A stretch of DNA of 56,370 nucleotides from an uncultured Anaerolineaceae bacterium (GTDB lineage: Bacteria; Chloroflexota; Anaerolineae; Anaerolineales; E44-bin32), in the NCBI GenBank assembly GCA_964492235.1, contig CAZBJQ010000002.1, positions 1 to 56,370 on the forward strand. The letters run 5' to 3'. Below the pieces are notes generated by a model. It was not told the DNA's origin, searched no databases, and worked only from the letters and a program-made list of their open reading frames with translations. This document shows positions 44,844-56,370 of the stretch, piece after piece. A program made the position numbers and the translations under genes. Each line of letters begins with the position of its first letter. Position 1 is the first letter of the stretch.

Positions 44844-44876
44844 GGGGCTTGGGCTTGTACCCAGGCCCCGTTTCTT
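44844..44876 (+). terminator. Rho-independent terminator of folD
   Basis: GGGGCTTGGG (44844-44853) pairs with CCCAGGCCCC (44860-44869): 10 bp including one G-U pair, with a 6-nt loop. It is followed by GTTTCTT. Confidence 0.55.
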
Positions 44877-45005: not shown

Positions 45006-45045
45006 TTGTCTGACAATTGACCGCCTCAGGCGGCGATGCTACACT
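45006..45045 (+). promoter_or_regulatory. Sigma-70-type promoter with an abutting palindromic operator (candidate GntR/HutC site)
   Basis: TTGACC (45017-45022), a 17-nt spacer, then TACACT (45040-45045). The palindrome TTGTC-T-GACAA (45006-45016) sits directly upstream of the -35 box. The first gene starts at 45063. Confidence 0.4.
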
Positions 45046-45062
45046 GTCCGTACACGTTCCCT

Positions 45063-46442
45063 ATGCCCACAACTCTGATCCGGAACGCCAAGGTCCTGGT
45101 CACCATGGACGAGGCCCGACGGGAGATTCCCGGCGGCGGCTTGTTTGTCCGAGATGGCTGGATCGAGCAGGTCGGTCCGACCGCCGGGCTTCCGCAGCAA
45201 GCGGACAACGTGTACGACCTGGAGGGCCACCTCGTCCTGCCAGGGCTGGTCAATACCCACCACCACCTGTACCAGACGCTGACGCGCGCCGTGCCGAAAG
45301 CTCAGGACGCCGGCCTGTTCACCTGGCTGAAAACGCTGTACCCGATCTGGGCGCGGATGAAGCCAGAGGACATTCGAGTGTCCACCATGATCGGTCTGGC
45401 CGAGCTTGTGCTGAGTGGATGCACCACGGCCAGCGACCATCTCTACCTTTTCCCCAACGGGTGCCGCCTCGACGACGAGATCGAAGCCGGCCGCGCCGTG
45501 GGCATCCGGTTGCACGCCGCGCGTGGCTCGATGAGCCTGGGTGAGAGCCAGGGCGGGCTGCCCCCGGATCGGGTTGTAGAGGACGAGGATTTCATCCTCA
45601 AGGACACACAGCGGCTCATCGACGCCTACCACGACCCGGCGCCGGGATCGATGCTCCAGATCGTGGTCGCGCCCTGCTCGCCCTTCTCGGTGACGCCCGG
45701 GTTGATGCGCCAGGCGGCCGCCCTGGCGCGAGACAAGGGCGTTCGCCTGCACACGCATCTGGCCGAGACCCTCGACGAGGAATCATTCTGCCTGGAGCAG
45801 TTCGGCCAGCGTCCGCTAGCCTATGCCGAGCATCTCGACTGGACCGGGGACGACGTGTGGTTCGCCCACGCTGTCCACATGAGGAGTGATGAGGTCAAGC
45901 GCATGGGGCGCGCCGGCATCGGTGTGGCCCATTGCCCTTCTTCGAACATGCGCCTGGCGTCCGGGATCGCCCCGGTCCTGGCCTACCTGGCGGCCGGTGT
46001 GCGGGTCGGCCTGGGGGTGGACGGCTCGGCCAGCAACGACGGCTCTCACTTGCTGGGAGAAACCAGGCAGGCGCTTCTGATCTCCCGCCTGGGGTCGGCC
46101 CTCGGCCCGGCGGACGGGGAGCGGCAGCCCCTGATCACCGCCCGTCAGGTGCTCGAGCTGGCGACCCGCGGTGGGGCGGCCGTCCTCGGCCGCAGCGACA
46201 TCGGATCGCTCGAGGTGGGCAAGTGCGCCGACTTGATCGCCATCCGGCTCGACCGGCTGAGCTACGCCGGCGCGCTGCACGACCCGGTTGCCGCCATCGT
46301 CCTGTGTGCGCCGGTCCATGTCGACTTCGCCTTCGTGCACGCCCGGCCGGTCGTGGAACAAGGCCGTCTTTCATCGCTTGATCTGGGACCCGTGATCGAG
46401 GCCCACAACCGGGCGGCTCGCCGCATGGCTGCGGGTGACTAG
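45063..46442 (+). CDS. Amidohydrolase-superfamily deaminase, 8-oxoguanine-deaminase/guanine-deaminase-like (COG0402 group)
   Basis: The N-terminus reads MPTTLIRNAKVLVTMDE. LPGLVNTHHHLYQTLTRAV is the HxH metal site. HTHLAET, FAHAVH and GLGVDGSASND are also present. The specific substrate is not certain. Confidence 0.8.
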   Translation: MPTTLIRNAKVLVTMDEARREIPGGGLFVRDGWIEQVGPTAGLPQQADNVYDLEGHLVLPGLVNTHHHLYQTLTRAVPKAQDAGLFTWLKTLYPIWARMKPEDIRVSTMIGLAELVLSGCTTASDHLYLFPNGCRLDDEIEAGRAVGIRLHAARGSMSLGESQGGLPPDRVVEDEDFILKDTQRLIDAYHDPAPGSMLQIVVAPCSPFSVTPGLMRQAAALARDKGVRLHTHLAETLDEESFCLEQFGQRPLAYAEHLDWTGDDVWFAHAVHMRSDEVKRMGRAGIGVAHCPSSNMRLASGIAPVLAYLAAGVRVGLGVDGSASNDGSHLLGETRQALLISRLGSALGPADGERQPLITARQVLELATRGGAAVLGRSDIGSLEVGKCADLIAIRLDRLSYAGALHDPVAAIVLCAPVHVDFAFVHARPVVEQGRLSSLDLGPVIEAHNRAARRMAAGD

Positions 46443-46476
46443 ACTGCGCCGAGGGAGGGCGGGGGAGGAAGTGGAT

Positions 46477-48282
46477 ATGGCTGACCTGCTGTCCATTCGC
46501 TCCCGGGGGCTGGTGGATGTGGCCATGGGCCGCCGGCCGGCCGACCTTGTCATTCGACGTGGGCGATGGGTGTGTGTCCAGTCCCGGGAGGTCATCGAGC
46601 GGACCGATCTCGCCGTCTTGGGCGACCGGATCGCCTATGTGGGCCCGGACGCCCAACACACCATCGGCACCGGGACTCAAGTCATCGACGCTGAGGATCG
46701 CTACCTGGTCCCCGGCCTGCTTGATGGTCACATGCATGTCGAGTCAGGCATGTTGACCGTCACCGAGTTCGTCCGGGCGGTCATCCCGCACGGAACCACT
46801 GGCATGTTCATGGACCCGCACGAGATCGCCAACGTCCTCGGACTGGCAGGCGTCCGCTTGATGGTGGACGAGGCGGCGGTTCAGCCGATCCACGTGTGGG
46901 TGCAGGTCCCATCGTGCGTGCCTTCCGCCCCCGGCTTGGAAACCCCCGGGGCGGTCTTCGGACCGAAGGAGGTCGCCGAAGCGCTTTCATGGCCGGGCGT
47001 GATCGGGCTTGGGGAAGTCATGAACTACCTCGGGGTGTACGAGGGCGATCCGAAGATGCACGAGGAGATGGCGGCGACCCGCCAGGCGGGGAAGGTTATC
47101 GGCGGCCACTACGCATCGCCCGATCTGGGGCGGGCCTTCCACGGCTATGTCGCCGGCGGCCCGGAAGACGATCATGAGGGGACGCGGGCCGAAGACGCGG
47201 TGGCTCGTGTCCGCCAGGGGATGAAGGCCATGCTGCGCCAGGGTTCTGCCTGGCACGATGTGGCGGCGCAGGTGGCGGCGATCGTTGAGCGCGGCCTGGA
47301 TCCGCGGCACTTCCTGCTGGTGACGGACGATTCCCACTGCGAGACGCTGGTCGCCGAGGGTCATGTCAACCGGGCGCTCCAGGTGGCGGTCGAGCACGGG
47401 GTCGAGCCGATTACCGCCATTCAGATGGCGACGCTGAACACCGCCGAGCATTTCGGAGTCGCCCGCGACGTGGGGCAGCTCGCGCCGGGTCGCTATGCCG
47501 ACATCCTCCTGGCGCGGGACTTGCGGCTCATTCGCCCGGACATGGTGCTGGGCAGGGGGAAGATACTTGCGGAGCACGGACAGACGTGCGCGCCTCGCCC
47601 CTCGTTCTCCTACCCGCAGGAGGTCCGCCAATCGGTCCGACTGCTCGCGCCCCTCCGCCCTGAAGACTTCGTCCTCAAGGCCCCGGATGGCAAGACCGTG
47701 CGTGCCCATGTGATCGGTGTGATCGAGAACCAGGCTCCCACTCGCCACCTGGAGTTCACCCTGCAGCCGAAGGATGGCCAGGTGGCCGCCGACCTGGAGG
47801 CCGATCTGGCGCTGGTTGCCGTGATCGATCGACACCACCAATCCGGGCGGATCCAGCTCGGGCTGGTCCACGGGATCGGGTTCAAGACGCAGGCGGCCTT
47901 CGCCTCCACCGTCGTCCACGACTGCCACCAGCTGATCGTGGTGGGCACGCACACAGGCGACATGGCGCGTGCCGCCAACGAACTGGCGGCGCACGGCGGC
48001 GGGCAGATCGTTGTCCGCCAGGGGAAGGTGCTGGGCAAGGTCAACCTACCGATCGGAGGCCTGCTCTCCGATGCGCCGGCGGAGACGGTCGCGGCCGAGG
48101 CCAGGTCGGTGCTTGAGGGGTTGCGGGCATGCGGCTGCGAATTGAACAATGCCAACATGCAGCTCAGCCTGCTGGGGCTGGTGGTGATTCCCGAGTTGCG
48201 GATCTCCGACCTGGGTCTGGTCGATGTCACCCGTTTCGCCTTGATCCCGGCGTTGGAGCCAGTCGGCGAGGGCAGCGCCTAG
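46477..48282 (+). CDS. ade: Adenine deaminase
   Basis: LVPGLLDGHMHVESGMLTVTEFVRAVIPHGTTGMFMDPHEIANV, GLGEVMNY, DDHEG, LVTDDSH and the C-terminal ..VVHDCHQLIVVGT..GGG closely resemble AdeC. ATG 46477 follows GGGGGAGGAAG. Confidence 0.9.
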   Translation: MADLLSIRSRGLVDVAMGRRPADLVIRRGRWVCVQSREVIERTDLAVLGDRIAYVGPDAQHTIGTGTQVIDAEDRYLVPGLLDGHMHVESGMLTVTEFVRAVIPHGTTGMFMDPHEIANVLGLAGVRLMVDEAAVQPIHVWVQVPSCVPSAPGLETPGAVFGPKEVAEALSWPGVIGLGEVMNYLGVYEGDPKMHEEMAATRQAGKVIGGHYASPDLGRAFHGYVAGGPEDDHEGTRAEDAVARVRQGMKAMLRQGSAWHDVAAQVAAIVERGLDPRHFLLVTDDSHCETLVAEGHVNRALQVAVEHGVEPITAIQMATLNTAEHFGVARDVGQLAPGRYADILLARDLRLIRPDMVLGRGKILAEHGQTCAPRPSFSYPQEVRQSVRLLAPLRPEDFVLKAPDGKTVRAHVIGVIENQAPTRHLEFTLQPKDGQVAADLEADLALVAVIDRHHQSGRIQLGLVHGIGFKTQAAFASTVVHDCHQLIVVGTHTGDMARAANELAAHGGGQIVVRQGKVLGKVNLPIGGLLSDAPAETVAAEARSVLEGLRACGCELNNANMQLSLLGLVVIPELRISDLGLVDVTRFALIPALEPVGEGSA

Positions 48283-48285
48283 TCG

Positions 48286-49035
48286 ATGAGCCACAAGAAT
48301 GCGGCCTCCCATCGGCAGACCGATCAGTACTTGCGGACGCAGGTGGCGTTGGCGCAACTGCTCGAGCGGACCGCGCCAGGATCGTTCCTGCCTTCGGAGC
48401 CGCAGCTGGCCCGACAGCTCAGTGTCTCTCGCGCTACGCTGCGTGAGGCCATGCGCTCGTTCGAGGAAGACGGCCGAATCGTCCGCCGACAGGGCGTGGG
48501 CACGGTGGTCACACGCAAGCCCAGGGTTCTTGAGAGCGGCCTGGAAGTGCTGGAGAGCATTGACAGCATGGCTGCTCGGATCGGTCTGGAAGTCGAAGTC
48601 GGTTCGCTAGCCGTGCAGCTGGCGGAGGCCGAGGGCGGCGAGCGGGACATGATGGGGCTGGCGCCTGGAGAGCGCCTGACCGAGATCTCGAGGGGAATCC
48701 TGGCCGGCGGGCGGCCGGTGGCTTTCCTCATCGACCGGGTCCCGGCGACCGTGCTACACCCGAGTGCCCTGGAGGCAGGGTTCGGGGGATCGGTGCTGGA
48801 CCTATTCCTCGGTCGCGGCGCCCCGGTCCTCGACTATTCCCGCACGGAGATCAGCGCCGTCTCGGCCTCGCACGACGTGGCGCGCCAGCTGCGGATCCAG
48901 CGGGGGGACGTTCTGTTGCACCTCGAGGCGTATCTATACACCGCCTCGGGTGTGGCCGTGGATCACAGCCAGAGCTACTTCCTGCCGGGCACATTCTGTT
49001 TTCACGTCGTCCGACGCCTGAACCGGCACGCTTGA
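48286..49035 (+). CDS. GntR family transcriptional regulator, HutC/FarR subfamily (wHTH plus UTRA domain)
   Basis: LPSEPQLARQLSVSRATLREAMRSFEEDGRIVRRQGVGTVV is followed by a UTRA-like C-terminal half. The gene starts 3 nt after the ade stop. Confidence 0.9.
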   Translation: MSHKNAASHRQTDQYLRTQVALAQLLERTAPGSFLPSEPQLARQLSVSRATLREAMRSFEEDGRIVRRQGVGTVVTRKPRVLESGLEVLESIDSMAARIGLEVEVGSLAVQLAEAEGGERDMMGLAPGERLTEISRGILAGGRPVAFLIDRVPATVLHPSALEAGFGGSVLDLFLGRGAPVLDYSRTEISAVSASHDVARQLRIQRGDVLLHLEAYLYTASGVAVDHSQSYFLPGTFCFHVVRRLNRHA

Positions 49036-49128
49036 TCACGAAGGTGGGTATCCAGATCGACACGAACCGACCGTCCGAAGGTCCGAGGCCAGCCAGCTGG
49101 TCTCAGTCATGCACAAGGAGCAAAGAGA

Positions 49129-50079
49129 ATGCGCAGTTTCATGGGGAGGGATATCCTCTCGCTCAAGGGCTTCGAGCGCTCGGAGTACTTCCGTGTCTTC
49201 GAGGCAGCCGACCGCCTGGCGCCCTTCGCCCGAGACCGTAAGAACACCGACCTGCTCCGGGAGAAGATATTGGTCACCGCCTTCTACCAGCCGAGCACGC
49301 GCACCCGCCTGGCGCACGAGGCCGCCATGCTTCGGCTGGGCGGCAAGGTGACCGGCTTCTCCGACGCCAAGATGACCCGCGCCGGCGACTTCTACCAGGA
49401 GTCGATCAAGGACACGGTTCACATGCTTGAATACTACGGAGATGTGATCGTCATGCGTCACTTCCAGCAAGGCGCGCCGCACGAAGCCGCCCGCTGGTCG
49501 AGCGTTCCGGTCATCAACGCCGGTGACGGCTGGGGGGAGCATCCCACACAGGTTCTGACTGACATGTACACCATCTACAAGGAGAAGGGCCGGCTGGATG
49601 GACTCAACTTCCTGCTCATCGGCGACATGCGGATGCGGACCATGCATTCGATCAGTTACGCCATGAGCCAGTTCGATATCCAGGCTACATACATCGCTCC
49701 GCCCGAGATGTCGCTCACGCCGGAGTTCAAGAAGGAGCTGGACGGACTCAACCTGACTTACCGCGAGGTCGACCACGTCTCCAAGGCGATTGCTGACGCG
49801 GATGTAGTCTACATGGAGCCGGTCGTACAGCCGGACTACACCAAGTCGCGCGACGAGCGTAAAGGAGATGTTGGCTTGACGCCGGCCAACTACCAGGTGA
49901 CAAAGGCCCTGATGCGCAAAGCCAAGCCGGACTCGCTGATCCTGCACTCGCTACCGCGCATGGACGAGCTGCTGGAGGAGGTCGATGACACGCGCCACGC
50001 CCGCTACTGGGAAGAGGCCTTCAATGGCGTGGTTGTGCGCATGGCCCTGTTGGCCCTGGTGCTGGGTGCGATGGAGTAG
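49129..50079 (+). CDS. Aspartate-carbamoyltransferase-like carbamoyltransferase (PyrB-class fold, divergent second-substrate site)
   Basis: The carbamoyl-phosphate motifs PSTRTR, VMRH and HPTQ are present, together with HSLPR and the C-terminal NGVVVRMALLALVLG. Overall it is collinear with E. coli PyrB by eye. AAGGAG lies 8 nt before the ATG. Confidence 0.85.
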   Translation: MRSFMGRDILSLKGFERSEYFRVFEAADRLAPFARDRKNTDLLREKILVTAFYQPSTRTRLAHEAAMLRLGGKVTGFSDAKMTRAGDFYQESIKDTVHMLEYYGDVIVMRHFQQGAPHEAARWSSVPVINAGDGWGEHPTQVLTDMYTIYKEKGRLDGLNFLLIGDMRMRTMHSISYAMSQFDIQATYIAPPEMSLTPEFKKELDGLNLTYREVDHVSKAIADADVVYMEPVVQPDYTKSRDERKGDVGLTPANYQVTKALMRKAKPDSLILHSLPRMDELLEEVDDTRHARYWEEAFNGVVVRMALLALVLGAME

Positions 50080-50144
50080 AGTGGGCAAGGGGCGCGGGAA
50101 AACCCGCCGGGCGCAACCTCTCGCCCCGGACAAGGAGAGCACGA

Positions 50145-51128
50145 ATGCAGACGGACTTGCGCGGGCGCGATCTGATCGGCGACCTCGACTTCAGTCGAGA
50201 AGAAGTCGAGACCGTTCTGGATGTGGCCTTTGACCTCAAGCGCAAACGAGCGCTGGGCGAACCGCATGCCTACTTGCGGGACAAGGTGCTGGCCATGCTG
50301 TTTTTCTTCAGCAGCACCCGCACGCGGGGCTCGTTTGAAGCCGGTATGGCCCAACTGGGCGGCCACGCCGCGTTCATCGAGGCGAAGACCACCCAGATCG
50401 CACACGGGGACACCCCCAAGGAGATCGGCCAGATCTTCGGCCGCTACTTCGACGGCATCGCCATCCGCCACGTCGACTGGGGGATCGGCAACAAGTACCT
50501 CAATGACGTCGCTCAGCATTCACGCGTGCCCGTGTTGAATATGCAGTGTGAGGTCTACCACCCCTTCCAGATCCTGGCTGACCTGATGACAATCCTCGAG
50601 AAGAAGGGCCGCGATCTGCGTCGAAAGAAGATGGTCGTCTCCTGGGCCTATGCCGCCTCCTACCAGAAGCCGATGTCGGTCCCTCAATCGTTGGTGCTGC
50701 AAATGCCGCGCTTCGGGCTGGACGTCGTCCTGGCCCACCCGCCGGAGTTCAAGCTGATGCCCGAAGTGATGGAGCAGGCACGGGCCCAGGCCAAGCGCTA
50801 TGGCACGGGCTTCGATGTCACCGATGACATGGACCAGGCCTTCAAGGAGGCCGACATCGTTTACGCCAAGTCGTGGGGAGCCATGCTCACCACGACCGAT
50901 CAGGATCAGGGCTCGAAGATCATCAAGAAGTACGAGTCGTGGATCACCGATGAGCGGCGCATGAAGCTGGCCAAGGCCGACGCCATCTACATGCACCCGC
51001 TGCCGGCGGACCGGAACGTCGAAGTCACAGATGCCGTCCTTGACAGCGGGCAGAGCGTGGTCTACGACGAGGCCGAGAACCGCATGCACGCCCAGAAGGC
51101 GGTCATGGCGCTGACGATGCGGTCGTGA
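50145..51128 (+). CDS. YgeW-like (knotted AOTCase/SOTCase/YgeW clade) carbamoyltransferase
   Basis: SSTRTR, QIAHGDT, LNMQCEVYHPFQILADL, VVSWAYAASYQKPMSVPQS, RFGLDVVLAHPPEF, EADIVYAKSWG and YMHPLPADRN run parallel to the E. coli YgeW sequence as I recall it. Confidence 0.8.
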   Translation: MQTDLRGRDLIGDLDFSREEVETVLDVAFDLKRKRALGEPHAYLRDKVLAMLFFFSSTRTRGSFEAGMAQLGGHAAFIEAKTTQIAHGDTPKEIGQIFGRYFDGIAIRHVDWGIGNKYLNDVAQHSRVPVLNMQCEVYHPFQILADLMTILEKKGRDLRRKKMVVSWAYAASYQKPMSVPQSLVLQMPRFGLDVVLAHPPEFKLMPEVMEQARAQAKRYGTGFDVTDDMDQAFKEADIVYAKSWGAMLTTTDQDQGSKIIKKYESWITDERRMKLAKADAIYMHPLPADRNVEVTDAVLDSGQSVVYDEAENRMHAQKAVMALTMRS

Positions 51129-51153
51129 CAACTATGCGGGCTTCACTCCTAGC

Positions 51154-51249
51154 GGGTGGGGTTTCTGCCCCACCCCCTGACCCCCTCCCCGCAGACTTGC
51201 GGGGCACGCTGCCGACCGCTGGCAGCAGGGAGGGGTGAGGGGTGGGGGT
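51154..51249. repeat. G/C-tract imperfect palindromic (REP-like) element with nested hairpins and G-quadruplex motifs
   Basis: GGGTGGGG (51154-61) pairs with CCCCACCC (51168-75). Inner hairpins are CCCCGCA/TGCGGGG (51187-51204) and GCTGCC/GGCAGC (51208-51226). A C-tract arm (51168-51190) is complementary to a G-tract arm (51228-51248). The octamer GGGTGGGG recurs at 51240-47. Confidence 0.6.
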
Positions 51250-51291
51250 TCGTTTCACATGTCCAGCGTCGGTCGGGAGGCATGCGCCAGG

Positions 51292-52233
51292 ATGAGCAAA
51301 ATCGCAGTGATTGCCGTGGGGGGCAATTCGCTGATCAAAGACAAGCAGCATCAGACCATCCCCGACCAGTACCAGGCGGCCGTCGAGTCGATGGCGCACA
51401 TCGCCGGTATGATAGAAGCTGGGTGGGATGTACTGGTGACGCACGGGAATGGCCCCCAGGTCGGCTTCATCCTGCGGCGGGCCGAGCTGTCACTGCACGA
51501 ACTGCACATGGTGGGGCTGGACTACTGCGGGGCCGACTCGCAGGGCGCCATCGGCTACATGTTCCAACGCGCGCTGTACAATGAGTTCCGCCGGCGCGGG
51601 ATCAAGAAAGACGCGGCGACCATCGTCACCCAGACCCTGGTGGACAGGAAGGACCCTGCCTTTCAGAACCCCAGCAAGCCGATCGGTTCGTTTATGGACC
51701 AGGAGCAGGCTGCGAAACACCGCCAGACCGATGGCTGGGCGGTGGTCGAGGACGCCGGGCGCGGCTGGCGGCGCGTTGTGCCCTCCCCGGACCCGAAGCG
51801 AGTGATCGAAGGACCTGCCATCAAGCAGCTGGTCGACGCCGGCTTCGTCGTCATCTGCGTCGGCGGCGGCGGGATCCCGGTGATCGAGGATGAGAACGGC
51901 GACCTGCAGGGCGTGGAAGCCGTGATCGACAAGGACTTCGGCGGCGCCCTGCTGGCCAGCGCCGTCCAGGCTGATCTGTTTCTGATCACCACCGCCGTCG
52001 AGAAAGTCGCCCTCAACTTCAACAAGCCGGACCAGGTGTGGCTCGACCGGTTGACCCTGGCCGAAGCCCGTCAACACCTGGCGGATGGGCAGTTTGCCAA
52101 AGGGAGCATGGGGCCGAAAATAGAGGCCATCCTCCGCTACCTGGAAAGCGGTGGCAAGGAAGCCCTGATCACCGACCCGGCCAACATCGAGCGGGCCCTG
52201 CAGGGGATGACCGGCACACGCATCGTGCCGTGA
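51292..52233 (+). CDS. arcC: Carbamate kinase
   Basis: KIAVIAVGGNSL, VTHGNGPQVG, YCGADSQGAIGY, GWRRVVPSP.P, ICVGGGGIPV, EAVIDKD and GSMGPKIEA are present. Confidence 0.92.
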   Translation: MSKIAVIAVGGNSLIKDKQHQTIPDQYQAAVESMAHIAGMIEAGWDVLVTHGNGPQVGFILRRAELSLHELHMVGLDYCGADSQGAIGYMFQRALYNEFRRRGIKKDAATIVTQTLVDRKDPAFQNPSKPIGSFMDQEQAAKHRQTDGWAVVEDAGRGWRRVVPSPDPKRVIEGPAIKQLVDAGFVVICVGGGGIPVIEDENGDLQGVEAVIDKDFGGALLASAVQADLFLITTAVEKVALNFNKPDQVWLDRLTLAEARQHLADGQFAKGSMGPKIEAILRYLESGGKEALITDPANIERALQGMTGTRIVP

Positions 52234-52338
52234 GAACCGAGCGGACAGAGAGGGGGAGGAGGTGGACCGAAGCGAGCTCACAGCACCGCGCTAACATGGA
52301 AACGATTTCGGTTTTGTCAATCACAGGGAGGAGCTGAA

Positions 52339-53619
52339 ATGCATAAGCGATTCTGGACTCTGGCCAGCCTGCTGATCGTCGCGGCCATCGTGCTGGCGGC
52401 GTGTGGTGGTGGCGGCGAAACGCCGGCCGCCCCGGAACAGCCGGTGGAACCGGCCGCAACCGAGGTGCCGGCCGCACCGGCACCCGCCGAGGAGACAGGC
52501 GGCTTCGAGATCCCCGAGGTCGAGGAAGGCAAGTTCAACGTGGCCATGGTTTTGATTGGCCCGCACAATGATGGCGGCTGGTCGCAGGCCCATTTCGAGG
52601 GCCTGGAGTATGTTGCCGACAACGTCGTCAACACACACGTCGCCTACATCGAGAACGTGCCGGAGGGCACGGAGTCCGAGCAGGTGTTCCGCAGCCTGGC
52701 GCGCAAGGGCTTCGACCTGATCTTCGGGACCTCCTTCGGATTCATGGATCCGATGGAAATCGTCGCCGGGGAGTTTCCGGACACCACCTTCAGCCACATC
52801 AGCGGTTACAAGTCCAACATGACGAACTTCGGCAACTTGTTCGGAGCCATGGAGGACATGAAGTATCTGGCGGGCATGCTCGCCGGTGCCCGCGCCAAGG
52901 CCGACGGGAATCCCAAGATCGGCTATATGGCCACCTTCCCGATTCCCGAAGAAATCCGCTTGGGGAATGCCATCGCGTTGGGGATGAAGGAAACCTGCCC
53001 CGAGTGCACGATGGACGTGCGCTGGATCAACACCTGGCATGACCCGATCATCGAGAAGGATGCTGCCGCCTCACTCTTCGACGCCGGTGCCCAGGTGGTC
53101 TTCACTGGCGCCGACACGCCGGCCGTGGCCGATGTCGCCCAGGAGAAGGGCAAGTGGGGCATCACTTACGACTGGTCCGGTTCGTGCAAAGTCGATGCCT
53201 GCCTGACCGCGCCCTACTGGAATTGGGGCCCGGTGTACGCCGGCATCACCCAGGGCCTGATCGACGGCACCTATGAAGTCGGGTGGGATTACTTCGACGC
53301 CGACAGCGGCGGCCTAGGCCTGTACGGCTTCATGGAGGGTGAACAGCTCACCAAGGGCATGGCCGATCTGCCGCCCGAGGTCATCGCCATGGTCCAGGAC
53401 ACGCTGGCCAAGATGTTGGCGGGTGAGTTCAACCGCTTCGACGTCTTCGCTGGCGAGATCCTGGATAACCAGGGCACGGTGATTGTGCCGGCCGGCGAGA
53501 AGATGCAGCAGTCCGACCTCGACCAGTTCCCGCCAGGAGCCCCCGGCCTCGAGTGCCAGTACTGTATGTATTGGTGGGCCGACGGGATCGCCTCGGAGCT
53601 GCCGAGTCTGGGCGGATAA
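52339..53619 (+). CDS. BMP-family (PnrA/Med-like) ABC transporter substrate-binding lipoprotein
   Basis: The lipobox is LIVAAIVLAAC, followed by a Pro/Ala/Glu linker and then FNVAMVLIGPHNDGGWSQAHFEGL. GGGAGGAG precedes the ATG. Confidence 0.88.
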   Translation: MHKRFWTLASLLIVAAIVLAACGGGGETPAAPEQPVEPAATEVPAAPAPAEETGGFEIPEVEEGKFNVAMVLIGPHNDGGWSQAHFEGLEYVADNVVNTHVAYIENVPEGTESEQVFRSLARKGFDLIFGTSFGFMDPMEIVAGEFPDTTFSHISGYKSNMTNFGNLFGAMEDMKYLAGMLAGARAKADGNPKIGYMATFPIPEEIRLGNAIALGMKETCPECTMDVRWINTWHDPIIEKDAAASLFDAGAQVVFTGADTPAVADVAQEKGKWGITYDWSGSCKVDACLTAPYWNWGPVYAGITQGLIDGTYEVGWDYFDADSGGLGLYGFMEGEQLTKGMADLPPEVIAMVQDTLAKMLAGEFNRFDVFAGEILDNQGTVIVPAGEKMQQSDLDQFPPGAPGLECQYCMYWWADGIASELPSLGG

Positions 53620-53638
53620 GCACCACCGCCACCCATCA

Positions 53639-53665
53639 GGGGTCGGGGCACGTTGCCCCGGCCCC
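53639..53665 (+). promoter_or_regulatory. Intercistronic GC-rich stem-loop between the binding-protein and ATPase genes
   Basis: In GGGGTCGGGGCA-cgt-TGCCCCGGCCCC the arms form a 12-bp stem (one G-U pair). No U-tract follows. The position is typical of hairpins that raise the binding-protein to transporter ratio. Confidence 0.45.
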
Positions 53666-53688
53666 TGTCAACCTTCCAGGGCAGGCTG

Positions 53689-55269
53689 ATGACTTCCGAC
53701 GACAGGCAAGTTGCGGCCGTCGAGATGCGGGGGATCACAAAGCGTTTCCCCGGCGTCCTGGCCAACGACTCGGTCGACTTTACACTGCGGCAGGGCGAGA
53801 TCCATGCCCTGCTGGGTGAGAACGGCGCCGGCAAGAGCACCCTGGTGAATGTGCTCACTGGGCTGTACCAGCCCGACGCAGGTACCATCCTGGTCAACGG
53901 TCAGCCGGTGGCCTTCGGCTCGCCGGGAGATGCCATCCGAAACGGGATCGGAATGGTTCACCAGCACTTCATGCTGGTCCCCACCCAAACTGTCACTGAA
54001 AACATCCTTCTTGGCCTCGACAAGCCTCGCTTCATCATGCGGACGGCGGGTTTCGATCGGGAGATCGGCGCCCTGGGCGAGAGGTACGGATTGCGGGTCG
54101 ATCCGGGCGCCAAGATCTGGCAGATCTCGGTCGGCGAACAGCAGCGGGTCGAGATCTTGAAGATCCTCTACCGCGGGGTGCGCGTGCTGATCATGGATGA
54201 GCCGACAGCAGTCCTCGCACCGCAGGAGATCGATGAGCTGTTCCGCACGTTGCGGTCGATGGTCGCCGAGGGCAAGTCGGTCGTCTTCATCAGCCACAAG
54301 CTCAATGAGGTCACGCGGATCGCTGACCGAATCACCGTTCTTCGCAAAGGCAGAGTGATGGCAGCCGGACTGCGACCTTCGGAGACCGACACCAGCGAGC
54401 TGGCGCGCCTGATGGTCGGCCGGGAGGTCATTTTTCAGCTGGAACGCAAGCCCAGACAGGCGGGCGAGGTCGTGCTGGCTGTGGAAGAAGTCCATGCGCT
54501 GAACGATCGCGGACTGGCCGCGTTGCGCGGCCTGTCACTGAACGTCCGGGCAGGGGAGATCGTCGGGCTGGCCGGCGTGGCGGGTAATGGACAATCCGAG
54601 CTGGCCGAGGTGATCACCGGGCTGAGGGCTCCGACCCGCGGCAGAGTGCTGGTGGGCGGGGAAGTTGTCGTGGATGGCACGCAGGGTGGCGGGACCAAAG
54701 GGCGAGTCATCGAACGCCTGATCCGGGCCGGCGTGTCCCACATCCCCGAGGACCGGACGCACGTGGGAACGGCGCCCAACCTGTCCGTCACAGACAATCT
54801 GATCATGAAGGGCTACCGCAGCCCGCCGATCGGCCGGGGTTGGTCGGTGGATGGCACTGCCGCCCGGTCGCGGGCAGCCCAATTGCGCCGGGAGTATGAC
54901 ATCACCGCCCCGTCTGTGGATACGCCCGTCAGACTCCTCTCTGGCGGGAACCTGCAGCGGTTGATTCTTGCCAGAGAGATCTCCAGCAAGCCTAAACTGA
55001 TGATCGCCATGCAGCCGACACGCGGTCTGGACGTCGGAGCGATCGAAGGCGTGCAGCGATTGCTCCTCGAGCAGCGGGACGCTGGCGCGGCCGTCCTGCT
55101 GGTGTCTGAGGAATTGGACGAGCTGATGAGCCTGAGCGACAGAATCTACGTCATCTTCGCCGGGGAAATCATGGGCGAGGTGCGTCAGACCGATATCGCC
55201 TCCCTGGGCATGATGATGACCGGCCAGCGCCTGGAGACCATCGCCGCATTGGCAGGAGGCAAGCCGTGA
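53689..55269 (+). CDS. ABC transporter ATP-binding protein with two nucleotide-binding domains (CUT2/nucleoside type)
   Basis: The first NBD has GENGAGKST, LSVGEQQRVEI and LIMDEPT. The second NBD has GVAGNGQSEL, LSGGNLQRL and VSEELDE. Confidence 0.92.
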   Translation: MTSDDRQVAAVEMRGITKRFPGVLANDSVDFTLRQGEIHALLGENGAGKSTLVNVLTGLYQPDAGTILVNGQPVAFGSPGDAIRNGIGMVHQHFMLVPTQTVTENILLGLDKPRFIMRTAGFDREIGALGERYGLRVDPGAKIWQISVGEQQRVEILKILYRGVRVLIMDEPTAVLAPQEIDELFRTLRSMVAEGKSVVFISHKLNEVTRIADRITVLRKGRVMAAGLRPSETDTSELARLMVGREVIFQLERKPRQAGEVVLAVEEVHALNDRGLAALRGLSLNVRAGEIVGLAGVAGNGQSELAEVITGLRAPTRGRVLVGGEVVVDGTQGGGTKGRVIERLIRAGVSHIPEDRTHVGTAPNLSVTDNLIMKGYRSPPIGRGWSVDGTAARSRAAQLRREYDITAPSVDTPVRLLSGGNLQRLILAREISSKPKLMIAMQPTRGLDVGAIEGVQRLLLEQRDAGAAVLLVSEELDELMSLSDRIYVIFAGEIMGEVRQTDIASLGMMMTGQRLETIAALAGGKP

Positions 55270-56370
55270 GGGCGACCAGTGGCCATGTGCGACGCAAAGG
55301 GTCCTTTCCTATCGCGATCTGGGTCGAGCCGCGGATGGACCAGCCGGGCTGGCTGGGTCCGGCCGTCTCACTGGGAGCTGTTGGCGTTGCGCTACTGCTG
55401 GGAGCGATGGTCCTGGAGATCGTCGGCGGCAACTCCATCCGAGCCTATAGCTTCATGCTCAAAGCCTCCTTTGGCAACTTCGGCGTGATCTCGGATACGC
55501 TGGTCAAAGCGACACCCTTGATTCTGGTGGGGCTGGCCTGCACCGTGGCCTTCCGCATGCGCCTGTGGAACATCGGCGCCGAAGGCCAGTTCTTTATGGG
55601 CGCTTTCGGCGCCAGCGCCGTTGTGCTGGCTCCCCTGGTGCCACCCGAAACGCCGGCCTGGCTGACCATCCTGGCGATGATCGTCGCTGGATTCGCGGCC
55701 GGGGCGCTGTGGGGCTTCATCCCCGGCATCCTCAAGGCACGCCTGAACGTCAACGAAATCATCACCACGCTCATGCTGAATTACATCGCCATTGCCTGGG
55801 TCAACTTCTTCATCTTCGCTGTCTGGACCGAGGGCGGGTTCCAGATGACCCGCATGTTCCCCAAGACGGCCTGGCTGCCGCGCCTGGCGGACTATGCCAA
55901 GCAGATCACCGGCCTGCGGGGCATTACGCTCCATCTGGGCCTGCTCTTTGGCCTGGTGGCGGCGGTCGTCATCTGGTGGGTGTTGGATCGCAGCAAGTGG
56001 GGGTATGAGATCCGACTCACGGGCGACAACCCGCGCGCTGCGCGCTACGCCGGCATCCGAATCGCGCTGAACACCGTTCTGGTCATGATGCTTTCTGGCG
56101 GACTGGCCGGACTGGCGGGCATGTCGGAGATCTCCGGAGTCGTCCACCGGCTGCAGGGCGCCATCTCCCCGGGCTACGGCTTCACCGGCATCATTATCGC
56201 CTGGCTGGCCAAGCTCAATCCGCTGGCCGTCGTTCCAGTATCCATCCTATTCGGCGCACTCATCCTCGCCGGGCGGGAGATCCAACCGTCCGGAGTTCCC
56301 AAGATGATCCAGGGAATTGTGCTGGTCTGCCTGATCGCCAGCGACTTCCTGGTGCGGAACCGCATCCAGA
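55266..56370 (+). CDS. ABC transporter permease (BMP/CUT2 type), 3' end outside the window
   Basis: This frame is not in the supplied ORF track because no stop lies in the window. GTG 55266 overlaps the ATPase stop (GTGA). My translation gives ...TPLILVGLACTVAFRMRLWNIGAEGQFFMGAFGA...GDNPRAARYAGI...GFTGIIIAWLAKLNP. Confidence 0.85.
   Translation, partial: MRATSGHVRRKGSFPIAIWVEPRMDQPGWLGPAVSLGAVGVALLLGAMVLEIVGGNSIRAYSFMLKASFGNFGVISDTLVKATPLILVGLACTVAFRMRLWNIGAEGQFFMGAFGASAVVLAPLVPPETPAWLTILAMIVAGFAAGALWGFIPGILKARLNVNEIITTLMLNYIAIAWVNFFIFAVWTEGGFQMTRMFPKTAWLPRLADYAKQITGLRGITLHLGLLFGLVAAVVIWWVLDRSKWGYEIRLTGDNPRAARYAGIRIALNTVLVMMLSGGLAGLAGMSEISGVVHRLQGAISPGYGFTGIIIAWLAKLNPLAVVPVSILFGALILAGREIQPSGVPKMIQGIVLVCLIASDFLVRNRIQ

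What the first reader, a model, noticed from the sequence alone, without database searches (positions are those of the whole stretch)
45006..56370. Purine deaminases, two different carbamoyltransferases, carbamate kinase and a BMP-type ABC importer: candidate ATP-yielding carbamoyl-compound catabolic pathway with no assignable substrate
Nine co-directional genes follow one another with gaps of 34, 3, 93, 65, 163, 105 and 69 nt and one GTGA overlap. In order they are an 8-oxoguanine/guanine-deaminase-like amidohydrolase, adenine deaminase, a GntR/HutC regulator, an ATCase-like transferase, a YgeW-like knotted transferase, carbamate kinase, a BMP-family binding lipoprotein, a double-NBD ATPase and a permease. 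A carbamoyltransferase next to a carbamate kinase is the signature of substrate-level ATP formation from a carbamoylated compound, as in the arginine deiminase, agmatine deiminase and oxalurate routes. None of the feeder enzymes of those routes is in the window: no arginine or agmatine deiminase and no allantoin or ureidoglycolate enzymes. There are also no pyrI/pyrC partners of a biosynthetic ATCase and no xanthine dehydrogenase. Two transferases from different subfamilies in tandem is unusual. The arrangement recalls the E. coli ygeW-yqeA (transferase plus carbamate kinase) pair, which sits in a purine-associated cluster whose chemistry stayed unresolved for a long time. Hypothesis: an imported nucleobase- or nucleoside-derived ureido compound is cleaved phosphorolytically in one or two steps to carbamoyl phosphate, and the kinase converts that to ATP.
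Basis: partly seen in the sequence, partly recalled or inferred. Interest (0 to 1): 0.72.

Follow-up and report, generated by a model that had tools for sequence, protein, structure and literature searches.

The report
ATP-yielding purine breakdown operon, Anaerolineales variant
The gene row is real and is most likely the first part of a purine-base degradation operon of an Anaerolineales bacterium, whose two unusual carbamoyltransferases and carbamate kinase make ATP from the ureido intermediates of the anaerobic uric-acid pathway solved in 2025, here in an uncharacterised two-transferase form.

Summary
In detail: all nine co-directional genes, their gaps and the GTGA overlap reproduce. Homologues are named Anaerolineales (Chloroflexota). 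The ATCase-like enzyme (T1) is not PyrB. It keeps the carbamoyl-phosphate site but lacks RxQxER, S80 and K84, and has HSLP, so it is a 'pseudo-ATCase'. The second transferase (T2) fails every curated transferase model. It nevertheless shares YgeW's second-substrate residues and proline-rich loop (34% identity).

A species-genome scan found T1 at 66-84% identity in 41 species genomes of several phyla. The recurrent partners are T2, carbamate kinase and two PLP enzymes that lie just beyond the window edge. In 22 of the 41 loci, hallmark genes of the reductive uric-acid (2,8-dioxopurine) pathway sit within 10 kb: SsnA-like, HyuA-like, YgeY, D-aminoacylase-like and molybdenum hydroxylases. One locus also has an F420-type luciferase-like reductase.

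In the window, a purine-base-type ABC importer, an 8-oxoguanine deaminase homologue and an adenine deaminase feed the route. A GntR operator-like palindrome (TTGTCTGACAA) overlaps the promoter-like site.

Most likely the cluster is a new variant of a known pathway. T2 and T1 may release both ureido groups as carbamoyl phosphate (inferred). The window itself holds no ring-opening enzymes.

The parts
43895..44770 (+). folD (methylene-THF dehydrogenase/cyclohydrolase). A conserved upstream neighbour in Chloroflexota only, and probably a separate transcription unit.
   Evidence: NCBIfam NF010785 415.9 > 396. Present upstream of the amidohydrolase in 7 of the 41 genome loci, all Chloroflexota, and also in metagenome loci L001-L005. 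A terminator-like hairpin follows it.
44844..44869 (+). Terminator-like hairpin with a T tract after folD. Likely the 5' boundary of the operon.
   Evidence: 10-pair stem with 8 G-C pairs, then GTTTCTTGCG.
45006..45016 (.). Palindrome TTGTCTGACAA, the candidate operator of the GntR/HutC regulator.
   Evidence: Single match in the window. The 16 exact matches in 14 related loci were not positioned one by one. The 8-base core TGTCWGAC lies within about 110 nt of the start of the orthologous amidohydrolase gene (21 nt inside the called ORF in L013) in the 13 of those loci where the gene was called. A GntR homologue was detected by tblastn in 13 of the 14 loci; in the fourteenth (L002) only the collection's gene call with GntR and UTRA domains shows one.
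45017..45045 (+). Sigma-70-like promoter candidate (TTGACC, 17 nt, TG-TACACT) abutting the palindrome.
   Evidence: This is a consensus match only.
45063..46442 (+). 8-oxoguanine/guanine deaminase homologue (AH1). It deaminates the C2 amino group of a purine and so feeds urate or xanthine (inferred).
   Evidence: NF006055 676 > 532. 557 bits to PDB 3HPA and 532 bits to 7WW2, '8-oxoguanine deaminase'. Present in 14 of the 41 T1-family genome loci and in L001-L005.
46477..48282 (+). Adenine deaminase homologue (adenine to hypoxanthine).
   Evidence: Adenine_deam_C and Amidohydro_1 domains. TIGR01178 460.8 vs 472.5. In the alignment to A. tumefaciens adenine deaminase 3NQB the strings HMH.ES, E.MN, GH, DHE and TDD are identical in both proteins. 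That these are the metal and catalytic residues is from my own knowledge.
48286..49035 (+). GntR/HutC-type repressor (winged-helix plus UTRA effector domain).
   Evidence: Pfam GntR and UTRA. In 14 of the 41 genome loci by ORF clustering and in most of L001-L005.
49129..50079 (+). T1, a pseudo-ATCase carbamoyltransferase. The carbamoyl-phosphate site is intact and the aspartate site is replaced. Proposed to phosphorolyse one ureido group of 2,3-diureidopropionate or of its mono-ureido product.
   Evidence: STRTR, R105, HPTQ and R167 are kept. S80 becomes R, K84 becomes Y, P266 becomes S (HSLP), and RxQxER is absent. Family-invariant strings: KMTRAGD(F/Y)YQE, RMRTMHS, and E, P, Q, D, Y, T of EPVVQxDYT, HSLPR. 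The family has 66-84% identity in 41 species, and the next relatives are at 44%.
50145..51128 (+). T2, a compact YgeW-like (probably knotted) carbamoyltransferase. Proposed to phosphorolyse 2,3-diureidopropionate as YgeW does.
   Evidence: 34% identical to E. coli YgeW. It shares QIAHG(D/E)T, N(M/L)QC, the proline-rich loop WAYxxSYxKPxSVPQ and KSW, and lacks YgeW's three insertions and its termini. It is below every curated cut-off. There is no DxxxSMG, and it has HPLP.
51292..52233 (+). Carbamate kinase (carbamoyl phosphate + ADP gives ATP + carbamate).
   Evidence: TIGR00746 369.2 > 358.25 and NF009007 396.9 > 266. 50% identical to E. coli YqeA.
52339..53619 (+). Bmp/PnrA-family lipoprotein, the substrate-binding protein of an ABC importer. 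Probably binds free purine bases.
   Evidence: Pfam Bmp. Signal peptide with a lipobox-like LAAC. The closest solved relatives are AtzT 6PI5 (176 bits) and 3S99 (155 bits). AtzT binds guanine with Kd 0.11 uM and adenine with Kd 2.5 uM, and 3S99 holds adenine (PMC6834077).
53689..55269 (+). ABC ATPase with two nucleotide-binding domains.
   Evidence: Two ABC_tran stretches.
55266..56370 (+). ABC permease 1, cut by the window end. In relatives it is followed by permease 2, a ThrC-like PLP enzyme, a GT2 glycosyltransferase and a CysK-like PLP enzyme.
   Evidence: BPD_transp_2. Synteny in L001-L005, L086 and L087.

Best explanation
The 3' end of the window is the first two thirds of a purine-base catabolic operon of an Anaerolineales bacterium. 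The operon starts at a promoter-like site that abuts a GntR-type operator-like palindrome.

Proposed sequence of events:
1. Free purine bases are imported by the Bmp-type ABC system (inferred from the closest solved relatives).
2. They are deaminated by the adenine deaminase and the 8-oxoguanine/guanine deaminase homologue (inferred from family membership).
3. Molybdenum hydroxylase, reductase and ring-opening amidohydrolase steps follow. These are not encoded in the window. In relatives they lie a few kb beyond the operon's PLP genes or elsewhere. They turn the purine ring into 2,3-diureidopropionate, as in the reductive uric-acid (2,8-dioxopurine) pathway shown in E. coli and Clostridia in 2025.
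4. T2, a compact YgeW-like transferase, and T1, a pseudo-ATCase, split the ureido groups with phosphate to give carbamoyl phosphate.
5. The carbamate kinase converts carbamoyl phosphate to ATP.
6. The two PLP enzymes just beyond the window edge presumably dispose of the resulting diaminopropionate.

What is shown: the gene content, the motifs, the cross-phylum gene association and the operator conservation. What is inferred: the substrates, the order of T1 and T2, and the yield of up to two ATP per purine.
For: Gene identities.

T2:
- It shares YgeW's putative second-substrate residues and its proline-rich loop. The residue list comes from PMC4581275.
- YgeW with YqeA makes ATP from 2,3-diureidopropionate (bioRxiv 10.1101/2025.04.24.650524; PMC12507026).
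- The window's kinase is 50% identical to YqeA.

T1-family neighbourhoods, from 41 species genomes:
- T2 is within 10 kb in 31 loci by tblastn.
- By ORF clustering, carbamate kinase is present in 25 loci, the ThrC-like PLP enzyme in 23 and the CysK-like PLP enzyme in 18.
- 22 of the 41 loci carry at least one hallmark of the reductive urate pathway.

The hallmarks:
- YgeY (TIGR03526 476 > 321; 39% identical to E. coli YgeY).
- D-hydantoinase (TIGR02033 410 > 393; 38% identical to HyuA).
- SsnA-like (432 vs 444, just under the cut-off).
- D-aminoacylase-like protein.
- Mo-hydroxylase large, FAD and 2Fe-2S subunits.

Locus L037 reads Xdh-FAD, Mo, HyuA, Mo, SsnA, luciferase-like reductase, T1, T2, CK. 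This matches the F420-type variant that PMC12507026 predicted for Chloroflexota.

In two Anaerolineales contigs that carry the same PLP-gene block, a hydantoinase-like amidohydrolase lies 1-4 kb past the last PLP gene. In L086, where T1 is 88% identical to the window's, an Xdh-type enzyme lies about 7 kb past it.

The binding protein's closest solved relatives bind guanine and adenine.

The operator palindrome is conserved upstream of the first gene in 14 loci. No terminator-like site lies on the + strand between 45 kb and the window end.
Against: - The window itself has no SsnA, HyuA, YgeY, Mo-hydroxylase or reductase homologue. I could not see beyond the CysK-like gene in the closest relatives, L001/L002.
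- SsnA-like genes were seen in only 5 of the 41 loci, and in only one Chloroflexota locus.
- There is no YgeX orthologue. The two PLP enzymes are only 28-30% identical to YgeX, and only over short stretches, so the end of the pathway is a guess.
- Six loci hold T1 together with YgeY, five of them with T2 as well and one (L016) without T2. T1 is therefore not simply a YgeY replacement.
- The two 2025 papers disagree on which ureido group YgeW removes, so the regiochemistry of T1 and T2 cannot be assigned.
- No biochemical or expression data exist for any of these proteins.
Confidence: 0.6

Rival explanations
1. The T1-T2-kinase (plus PLP enzyme) module degrades some other ureido or N-carbamoyl amino compound. 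Candidates are hydantoin-derived N-carbamoyl amino acids, citrulline-like compounds, or products of pyrimidine or guanidino compounds. On this view its position beside purine deaminases and a purine importer in Anaerolineales reflects shared nitrogen scavenging rather than one pathway.
For: - The window has no ring-opening enzymes.
- 19 of the 41 loci show no purine-pathway hallmark within 10 kb.
- The PLP enzymes are threonine-synthase-like and cysteine-synthase-like, not YgeX-like.
- Actinomycetota loci also carry an aminotransferase, a glyoxylate-reductase-like dehydrogenase and a glutamate dehydrogenase.
Against: - The hallmark genes that recur are exactly the set of the reductive urate pathway, and they recur across several phyla.
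- T2 keeps YgeW's specific second-substrate residues.
- Many of the loci without hallmarks are short contigs.
Confidence: 0.17
2. An oxidative, allantoin-type route. T1 acts like the Rubrobacter ureidoglycine carbamoyltransferase on allantoate, and T2 acts on oxalurate or a related compound, each feeding the kinase.
For: - T1 belongs to the same pseudo-ATCase assemblage as UGTCase, which phosphorolyses allantoate next to a carbamate kinase (PMC4016543).
- The 8-oxoguanine deaminase product is urate.
Against: - T1 has HSLP and EPVVQxDYT, not the HPLA and AIA/SIA motifs of the UGTCase group.
- No uricase, HIU hydrolase, OHCU decarboxylase, allantoinase or ureidoglycolate enzyme recurred among the conserved neighbour families of the T1 loci or was found among the window ORFs tested. 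Single-locus ORFs were mostly not annotated.
- The recurrent cyclic amidohydrolase scores as D-hydantoinase (410) rather than allantoinase (217, cut-off 358).
- The organisms are mostly anaerobes (my own knowledge).
Confidence: 0.07
3. The classical clostridial xanthine fermentation. Xanthine goes to 4-ureido-5-imidazolecarboxylate and on to formiminoglycine. A transferase replaces the ureido hydrolase, and FolD handles the one-carbon unit.
For: - folD is a conserved upstream neighbour in Chloroflexota.
- Two amidohydrolases lead the operon.
- No reductase is visible in the window.
Against: - folD is separated from the operon by a terminator-like hairpin.
- folD is absent from the T1 loci outside Chloroflexota.
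- The two amidohydrolases are close homologues of true deaminases.
- No UbiD-type decarboxylase or formiminotransferase recurred near the module.
- The neighbours that do recur are SsnA-, HyuA- and YgeY-type.
Confidence: 0.05
4. Ordinary biosynthesis. T1 is PyrB, T2 is ArgF or ArgF', and the kinase supplies carbamoyl phosphate from the ammonia released by the deaminases.
For: - T1 passes the TIGR00670 ATCase cut-off (248.7 vs 236.95).
- Public annotations call T1 and T2 ATCase and OTCase/AOTCase.
Against: - T1 lacks RxQxER, S80, K84 and HP[LG]P.
- T2 lacks DxxxSMG and the AOTCase/SOTCase S[LM]RT motif and Trp, and fails all cut-offs.
- No pyrI, pyrC or arg genes are nearby in any locus.
- T1 is 66-84% identical across phyla and then drops to 44%. 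That is not the pattern of a vertically inherited housekeeping gene.
- Barba et al. state that pseudo-ATCases coexist with authentic ATCases in the same organism. This includes, by inference, the Nocardioides gene with the same context as L040.
Confidence: 0.03

Closest known systems
E. coli xdhD-ygfK-ssnA / ygeW-ygeX-ygeY-hyuA-yqeA cluster: the reductive uric-acid (2,8-dioxopurine) pathway (bioRxiv 10.1101/2025.04.24.650524; PMC12507026)
   Same: - A YgeW-type transferase next to a carbamate kinase (T2 is 34% identical to YgeW, the kinase 50% to YqeA).
- Association in related loci with YgeY (39%), HyuA (38%), SsnA-like and Mo-hydroxylase genes.
- A PALP-fold enzyme at the end of the route.
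- Substrate-level ATP formation from a purine-derived ureido compound.
   Different: - A second transferase of the ATCase branch (T1) sits in tandem.
- T2 lacks YgeW's insertions and termini and fails the YgeW models.
- There is no YgeX orthologue. A ThrC-like and a CysK-like PLP enzyme take its place.
- YgeY is usually absent.
- The reductase, where seen, is luciferase-like (F420-type) rather than YgfK or UacX.
- Here the operon also carries purine deaminases, a GntR regulator and a purine-base ABC importer.
- The ring-opening genes are not in the window.
Pseudo-ATCase subgroup 2 of Nocardioides sp. JS614 (Barba et al. 2013, PMC4016543)
   Same: - An ATCase-like gene with STRT, HPTQ and H[ST]LP and without RxQ, adjacent to a ygeW homologue and followed by xdh genes and hyuA.
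- Locus L040 (a Nocardioides MAG, T1 67% identical) has exactly this order.
   Different: - No function was assigned in 2013.
- Their motif column (GX[SC]) cannot be matched to T1 without their alignment.
- The Anaerolineales operon adds the kinase, the deaminases, the regulator and the transporter.
Ureidoglycine carbamoyltransferase (UGTCase, Rxyl_2847) plus carbamate kinase of Rubrobacter xylanophilus
   Same: - A pseudo-ATCase that phosphorolyses one ureido group of a diureido acid from purine breakdown (allantoate, which is diureidoacetate), next to a carbamate kinase.
- The substrate proposed for T1 is its one-carbon-longer analogue.
   Different: - Different subgroup motifs (HPLA and AIA/SIA versus HSLP and EPVVQxDYT).
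- An aerobic uricase/allantoinase context.
Arginine deiminase and agmatine deiminase pathways (deiminase, catabolic OTCase/PTCase, carbamate kinase)
   Same: The same logic: a hydrolytic deamination or ring step creates a ureido group, a transcarbamylase phosphorolyses it, and carbamate kinase makes ATP.
   Different: No arginine or agmatine deiminase is present. Neither transferase has OTCase or PTCase specificity motifs.
C. difficile variant of the reductive urate cluster (UacX, UacY)
   Same: It shows that the ureido-cleaving steps are modular. Some T1 loci carry a D-aminoacylase-like (UacY-like) gene beside T1.
   Different: C. difficile replaces the transferase and kinase with hydrolysis and gains no ATP. 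The present cluster appears to go the other way, with two transferases.

Membership tests
Aspartate carbamoyltransferase (PyrB), tested for T1 | Reaches the curated HMM cut-offs | tested here: inconclusive
   TIGR00670 248.7 vs 236.95 (passes). NF002032 234.5 vs 263 (fails).
Aspartate carbamoyltransferase (PyrB), tested for T1 | RxQxER motif of the 240s loop (R229 and Q231 bind the aspartate beta-carboxylate) | tested here: not met
   No alignment gives the motif. HMMER aligns EPVV(Q) to TRIQ. BLAST aligns TKSRDER after an 8-residue insertion. The K/Q at the R229 position varies within the family, while EPVVQxDYT is conserved (E, P, Q, D, Y and T invariant).
Aspartate carbamoyltransferase (PyrB), tested for T1 | S80 and K84 of the 80s loop, and HP[LG]P | tested here: not met
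   S80 becomes R, K84 becomes Y, and the motif is HSLP. Motif definitions from PMC4581275 and PMC4016543.
Aspartate carbamoyltransferase (PyrB), tested for T1 | It is the genome's ATCase, with a pyrI/pyrC context | not testable with these tools
   No pyr genes lie near T1 in the window or in the 46 loci. The whole source genome could not be read.
Pseudo-ATCase (Barba et al. 2013), subgroup 2, tested for T1 | STRT and HPTQ kept, H[ST]LP, RxQ lost | tested here: met
   against Table 1 of PMC4016543.
Pseudo-ATCase (Barba et al. 2013), subgroup 2, tested for T1 | Adjacent to a ygeW homologue, with xdh and hyuA nearby | tested here: met
   T2 is adjacent in the window. L040 (Nocardioides) reads T1, T2, Xdh-FAD, Mo, HyuA-like, Mo. 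The window itself lacks xdh and hyuA.
Pseudo-ATCase (Barba et al. 2013), subgroup 2, tested for T1 | GX[SC] at the R230-Q232 position | tested here: inconclusive
   The result depends on their alignment. T1 shows PVV or KSR at that position, depending on the aligner.
Ureidoglycine carbamoyltransferase (pseudo-ATCase subgroup 1), tested for T1 | HPLA, and AIA/AIS/SIA | tested here: not met
   T1 has HSLP.
YgeW transcarbamylase (YTCase), tested for T2 | Reaches the curated HMM cut-offs (NF005538, TIGR03316) | tested here: not met
   192.4 vs 453 and 186.2 vs 500.
YgeW transcarbamylase (YTCase), tested for T2 | Second-substrate residues Q98, Q160, S200, K203 and K270, and the proline-rich loop | tested here: met
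   QIAHGDT aligns with QIAHGET, NMQC with NLQC, WAYAASYQKPMSVPQ with WAYSPSYGKPLSVPQ, and YAKSW with YPKSW. These are conserved in 34 T2 orthologues. The D124 equivalent is not conserved.
YgeW transcarbamylase (YTCase), tested for T2 | [quoted passage not shown] | tested here: not met
   T2 has 327 aa against 396. The 120s, 240s and post-LPAD insertions are absent.
YgeW transcarbamylase (YTCase), tested for T2 | Trefoil-knotted fold | tested here: inconclusive
   The sequence has the proline-rich loop. The AlphaFold model was too poor to judge (mean pLDDT 53.8).
Ornithine carbamoyltransferase, tested for T2 | DxxxSMG and HCLP, and the HMM cut-offs | tested here: not met
   KSWGAM stands in place of DxxxSMG. 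The window protein has HPLP (some orthologues have HCLP). Scores are 260.6 vs 306 and 253.8 vs 280.85.
N-acetyl/N-succinyl-ornithine carbamoyltransferase (ArgF'), tested for T2 | S[LM]RT, Trp in a long 80s loop, Glu before HPxQ, an arginine-gene context, and the HMM cut-off | tested here: not met
   T2 has STRT, an 80s loop about 9 residues shorter with no Trp, and Q in place of E144. Its score is 255.8 vs 288. There are no arg genes nearby.
Carbamate kinase | Curated HMM cut-offs | tested here: met
   TIGR00746 369.2 > 358.25 and NF009007 396.9 > 266.
Reductive uric-acid (2,8-dioxopurine) pathway gene cluster | YgeW-type transferase together with carbamate kinase | tested here: met
Reductive uric-acid (2,8-dioxopurine) pathway gene cluster | SsnA, HyuA, an XdhD-type Mo enzyme and a reductase in the same cluster | tested here: not met
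   None of these is in the window. They are present in related T1 loci: Mo large subunit in 14, HyuA-like in 8, SsnA-like in 5 and a luciferase-like reductase in L037. They also lie downstream in L086 and L087. The cluster runs off the window.
Reductive uric-acid (2,8-dioxopurine) pathway gene cluster | YgeX diaminopropionate ammonia-lyase | tested here: not met
   There is no orthologue. The ThrC-like and CysK-like PALP enzymes match YgeX only weakly (28% over 110 aa and 30% over 46 aa).
Reductive uric-acid (2,8-dioxopurine) pathway gene cluster | Conversion of urate through 2,3-diureidopropionate, with ATP formation | not testable with these tools
   This needs enzymology.
Arginine/agmatine deiminase pathways | A deiminase gene and OTCase/PTCase specificity motifs | tested here: not met

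The most novel reading that the evidence does not exclude
T1 defines a new transcarbamylase specificity. Together with the compact YgeW-like T2 it releases both ureido groups of 2,3-diureidopropionate as carbamoyl phosphate. This widespread module (two transferases, a kinase and two PLP enzymes) in Chloroflexota, Actinomycetota and other phyla would then yield up to two ATP per purine by substrate-level phosphorylation, against one in E. coli and none in C. difficile. Diaminopropionate would be removed by PLP enzymes unrelated to YgeX.
Probability: 0.35. Interest if true: 0.65.

Novelty: new variant of a known kind. Interest (0 to 1): 0.52.

Why it matters
The anaerobic uric-acid pathway was solved only in 2025, in gut bacteria. 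This locus indicates that a differently built version is common in Anaerolineales and occurs in several other environmental phyla.

If correct, it would do four things.
- It would give a concrete, testable substrate to the 'pseudo-ATCase' family, which has been an orphan since 2013.
- It would do the same for a transferase family that databases label ornithine or N-acetylornithine carbamoyltransferase. T1 is likewise labelled aspartate carbamoyltransferase, so the finding would correct widespread misannotation.
- It would suggest a higher-yield way of conserving energy from purines.
- It would point to purine bases as a fermentable substrate for Anaerolineales.

It also supplies a candidate regulator-operator pair (GntR and TTGTCWGACAA) for experiments.

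Tried and rejected
- An exact-sequence look-up of the window's binding protein found no contig, so the true 3' continuation could not be read. I used relatives instead.
I spent the last homologue search on the CysK-like enzyme to walk downstream. No listed hit came from the contigs closest to the window.
- AlphaFold models of the CysK-like enzyme and of T2 were poor (mean pLDDT 60.4 and 53.8) because the permitted alignments were shallow. The fold search only confirmed a CysK/CBS-type fold at TM about 0.33. No fold search was run for T2.
- The closest relative outside the T1 family (P0249, 50% identical) sits in an unrelated context of LuxR regulators, an HMGL-like enzyme and an aminotransferase. 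It says nothing about T1.
- I first suspected that the PALP gene after the permeases was a YgeX-like diaminopropionate ammonia-lyase. It scores as threonine-synthase-like instead.
- I considered that the two leading amidohydrolases might be the ring-opening enzymes, as analogues of SsnA and HyuA. I rejected this as the main reading. They are close homologues of true deaminases, and the 8-oxoguanine deaminase homologue coexists with SsnA-like genes in L036 and L040.
- Literature searches for this cluster in Anaerolineae, and for later work on pseudo-ATCases, found nothing. The paper on clostridial purinolytic enzymes cited by PMC12507026 did not turn up in the library search.
- A per-genome test for a canonical pyrB or argF was not possible with one capped genome scan.
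- A palindrome like the operator was not found upstream of T1.

Full report
**1. Observation**

ORF listing, start-codon inspection and profile searches reproduce the finding. Nine + strand genes run from about 45.0 kb to the window end. Their gaps are 34, 3, 93, 65, 163, 105 and 69 nt, with one GTGA overlap.

The genes are:
- An amidohydrolase that passes the curated 8-oxoguanine deaminase model (676 vs 532).
- An adenine-deaminase-like protein (Adenine_deam_C; TIGR01178 460.8 vs 472.5).
- A GntR/UTRA regulator.
- Two OTCace_N/OTCace transferases (T1 and T2).
- A carbamate kinase that passes its cut-offs.
- A Bmp lipoprotein.
- A two-domain ABC ATPase.
- A truncated permease.

G+C is about 64% throughout, with GC3 about 0.8 in these genes. 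Close homologues are named Anaerolineales or Chloroflexi in public records.

**2. The two transferases are not PyrB and ArgF**

T1 barely passes one ATCase model (248.7 vs 236.95) and fails another (234.5 vs 263). Its best solved relative is Pyrococcus abyssi ATCase.

Compared with E. coli PyrB it is 37% identical.
- Kept: STRTR, R105, HPTQ and R167.
- Changed: R for S80, Y for K84, and HSLP for HPLP.
- No aligner recovers RxQxER.

These residues define aspartate binding in ATCase (PMC4581275). Their loss, together with H[ST]LP, defines the 'pseudo-ATCases' of Barba et al. 2013 (PMC4016543).

In a search of 1.84 billion cluster representatives, T1 has two full-length representatives at 76-78% identity. 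Identity then drops to 50% or less. Among those hits, a superclade shares the 80s loop TRAGD(F/Y)Y and a one-residue deletion before R167. Canonical ATCases show S..KGE and RxQxER instead.

T2 fails every curated model: OTCase 260.6/306, AOTCase 255.8/288, PTCase 212.8/500 and YgeW 192/453. It lacks DxxxSMG, and it has HPLP where OTCase has HCLP.

Aligned directly with E. coli YgeW it is 34% identical. It shares the residues proposed to bind YgeW's second substrate, and the proline-rich loop:
- QIAHG(D/E)T (Q98).
- N(M/L)QC (Q160).
- WAYxxSYxKPxSVPQ (S200, K203).
- KSW (K270).

It lacks YgeW's three insertions and its terminal extensions (residue list). So 'YgeW-like' is right in the sense of the active site, not in the sense of model membership.

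**3. What lies beyond the window**

Contigs carrying proteins 95% (T1) or 84-87% (T2) identical to the window's show the same order. After the first permease they continue with a second permease, a threonine-synthase-like PLP enzyme, a GT2 glycosyltransferase and a 489-aa cysteine-synthase-like PLP enzyme. folD lies upstream.

Two further Anaerolineales contigs carry a conserved small ORF and a hydantoinase-like amidohydrolase 1-4 kb beyond the last PLP gene. In L086 an Xdh FAD subunit and a fused Fe-S/Mo subunit follow about 7 kb beyond it.

**4. Cross-phylum association**

A scan of one genome per species found T1 at 66-84% identity in 41 genomes. The next hits are at 44%. The genomes are Anaerolineales and other Chloroflexota, Acidimicrobiia and other Actinomycetota (including a Nocardioides and a Streptosporangiaceae MAG), Phycisphaerae, Verrucomicrobiia and Eisenbacteria.

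I used tblastn and clustering of neighbouring ORFs.
- T2 is within 10 kb in 31 loci by tblastn.
- The kinase is present in 25 loci, the ThrC-like enzyme in 23 and the CysK-like enzyme in 18.
- These partners occur in both Chloroflexota and non-Chloroflexota.
- The Bmp binding protein, GT2 and folD were found only in Chloroflexota. One Acidimicrobiales locus has a distantly related ABC ATPase and permeases.

The other recurrent neighbours are:
- A YgeY-family hydrolase (476 > 321; 39% identical to E. coli YgeY; 6 loci, five of them immediately upstream of T1).
- A D-hydantoinase (410 > 393; 38% identical to HyuA; 8 loci).
- An SsnA-like amidohydrolase (432 vs 444; 5 loci).
- A D-aminoacylase-like amidohydrolase (3 loci).
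- Mo-hydroxylase large (14 loci), FAD and 2Fe-2S subunits.
- MobA/MocA, and an NCS1 nucleobase carrier.

Of the 41 loci, 22 have at least one of the hydrolase or Mo-hydroxylase markers.

L037 reads Xdh-FAD, Mo, HyuA-like, Mo, SsnA-like, luciferase-like oxidoreductase, T1, T2, kinase. L040 (Nocardioides) reads 8-oxoguanine-deaminase-like, CysK-like, ThrC-like, SsnA-like, T1, T2, Xdh-FAD, Mo, HyuA-like, Mo. This is the arrangement Barba et al. described for their subgroup 2.

This gene set is that of the reductive uric-acid (2,8-dioxopurine) pathway. There SsnA and HyuA open the rings to 2,3-diureidopropionate. YgeW phosphorolyses one ureido group, YqeA makes ATP, YgeY hydrolyses the other ureido group, and YgeX deaminates diaminopropionate.

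PMC12507026 noted SsnA clusters in Chloroflexota and Actinomycetota. It noted neighbours of the transferase and PALP Pfam families across the SsnA network in general. For Chloroflexota it proposed an F420-type luciferase-family reductase. It did not analyse these proteins. The MAG survey in the bioRxiv paper required at least 63% identity to YgeW and would miss this variant.

**5. The window-specific parts**

The first enzyme scores 557 bits to PDB 3HPA (deposited simply as 'amidohydrolase') and 532 bits to 7WW2, '8-oxoguanine deaminase'.

The second enzyme shares the strings HMH.ES, E.MN, GH, DHE and TDD with A. tumefaciens adenine deaminase. These include the metal ligands, to my knowledge.

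The binding protein's closest solved relatives are AtzT and 3S99. AtzT binds guanine at 0.11 uM and adenine at 2.5 uM, and 3S99 holds adenine. Import of free purine bases is therefore the likeliest role.

A terminator-like hairpin follows folD. A promoter-like site precedes the first gene, and no terminator-like site lies on the + strand inside the row.

Abutting the -35 hexamer is the palindrome TTGTCTGACAA, found once in the window. Exact copies occur in 14 related loci. In the 13 of them where the gene was called, the core lies within about 110 nt of the start of the orthologous first gene (in L013, 21 nt inside the called ORF). Nearly all of these loci have a detectable GntR gene. This is a candidate operator. 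It was not seen upstream of T1, which fits a single regulated unit.

The rest of the window holds no related gene: no Xdh, SsnA, HyuA, YgeY or further transferase.

**6. Mechanism and its limits**

The best reading has six steps.
1. Purine bases are imported.
2. They are deaminated.
3. They are converted to 2,3-diureidopropionate by Mo hydroxylase, reductase and ring-opening enzymes not encoded in the window.
4. T2 and T1 phosphorolyse the ureido groups.
5. The kinase makes ATP.
6. The PLP enzymes remove the diamino acid.

For T1 the argument is indirect.
- It keeps the alpha-carboxylate Arg (R167) but not the beta-carboxylate site.
- Its characterised cousin, UGTCase, cleaves one ureido group of allantoate, the one-carbon-shorter diureido acid.
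- YgeY is absent from most T1 loci.

Against a simple 'T1 replaces YgeY' reading:
- Six loci hold T1 together with YgeY (five of them with T2 as well), and a few hold T1 with only YgeY or only the D-aminoacylase-like enzyme.
- The 2025 papers disagree on YgeW's regiochemistry.
- The PLP enzymes are not YgeX-like.

All substrates are inferred.

**7. Verdict**

This is a new variant of a recently solved pathway, not a new kind of system. It is of moderate interest. It assigns a testable role to two misannotated transferase families and suggests a higher-yield form of purine fermentation in abundant environmental bacteria.

Noticed in passing
L001 19573-20595; L005 18359-19336; also L008, L011, L015, L023, L036, L041, L045: A GT2 glycosyltransferase sits between the two PLP-enzyme genes in Chloroflexota loci only. 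Its best matches, PgfS (258.7 bits) and ArnC (197 bits), are both below cut-off. It has no obvious role in purine breakdown.
   Followed up: partly
L011 16818-17429; L086 11526-11993; L087 11862-12413; L036, L041, L045: A conserved ORF of 155-220 aa directly follows the CysK-like PLP gene in Chloroflexota. The two members tested, from L011 and L086, have no Pfam match, and the L011 member has no NCBIfam match.
   Followed up: partly
L004 8329-9822; L006, between T1 and T2: A roughly 500-700 aa ORF is inserted between T1 and T2 in two Chloroflexota loci. It is hydrophobic by eye and has no Pfam hit on record in the collection. It moves the two transferase genes 2-3 kb apart.
   Followed up: no
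L046 4045-4968 and about 5083 onward: In an Anaerolineaceae MAG, a different ATCase-like transferase (44% identical to T1; motifs not checked) lies next to a carbamate kinase 75% identical to the window's. It may be another transferase-kinase pair with a different substrate.
   Followed up: no
window 51154-51175 (T2-kinase gap): A G+C-rich hairpin, GGGTGGGG-TTTCT-GCCCCACCC, lies in the 163-nt gap before the kinase gene. It has no T tract. Its function is unknown.
   Followed up: no
L087 19150-21249: A selB (selenocysteine elongation factor) gene lies 8 kb downstream of the CysK-like gene. In gut bacteria the pathway depends on selenium-dependent Mo hydroxylases.
   Followed up: no
L020, L028, L029, L062 (Actinomycetota loci): Next to the module are an aminotransferase (best match GntC-like or aspartate aminotransferase, below cut-off), a glyoxylate/hydroxypyruvate-reductase-like dehydrogenase, a glutamate dehydrogenase and a 129-aa unknown ORF. 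In these loci T2 and a distant GntR are divergently transcribed from T1. This hints at a different fate for the three-carbon product.
   Followed up: partly
L004, L005, L012, L023 versus the window, L001-L003, L006, L008, L013, L015: Two different Bmp-type ABC systems, whose binding proteins are only about 29% identical, occupy the same position between the kinase and the ThrC-like gene in different Anaerolineales.
   Followed up: partly
window 2254-3909 (+), 3922-5940 (-), 6190-7272 (+), 10242-11183 (+), 20479-21618 (+), 22888-24036 (+): Six long ORFs with high GC3 have no Pfam match at E <= 1e-5. The rest of the window holds, among others, a PMT_2-like membrane protein, a NUDIX-GNAT fusion, a GT28-type glycosyltransferase and a T2SSE secretion ATPase. 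None of these relates to the finding.
   Followed up: no
Logan SRR29199365 contig, gene at 5955-6917: The nearest relative outside the T1 family (50% identical, HSLPR, MESVVRPDY) sits between LuxR/AAA regulators and an HMGL-like enzyme plus an aminotransferase. This may be a biosynthetic use of a pseudo-ATCase.
   Followed up: no
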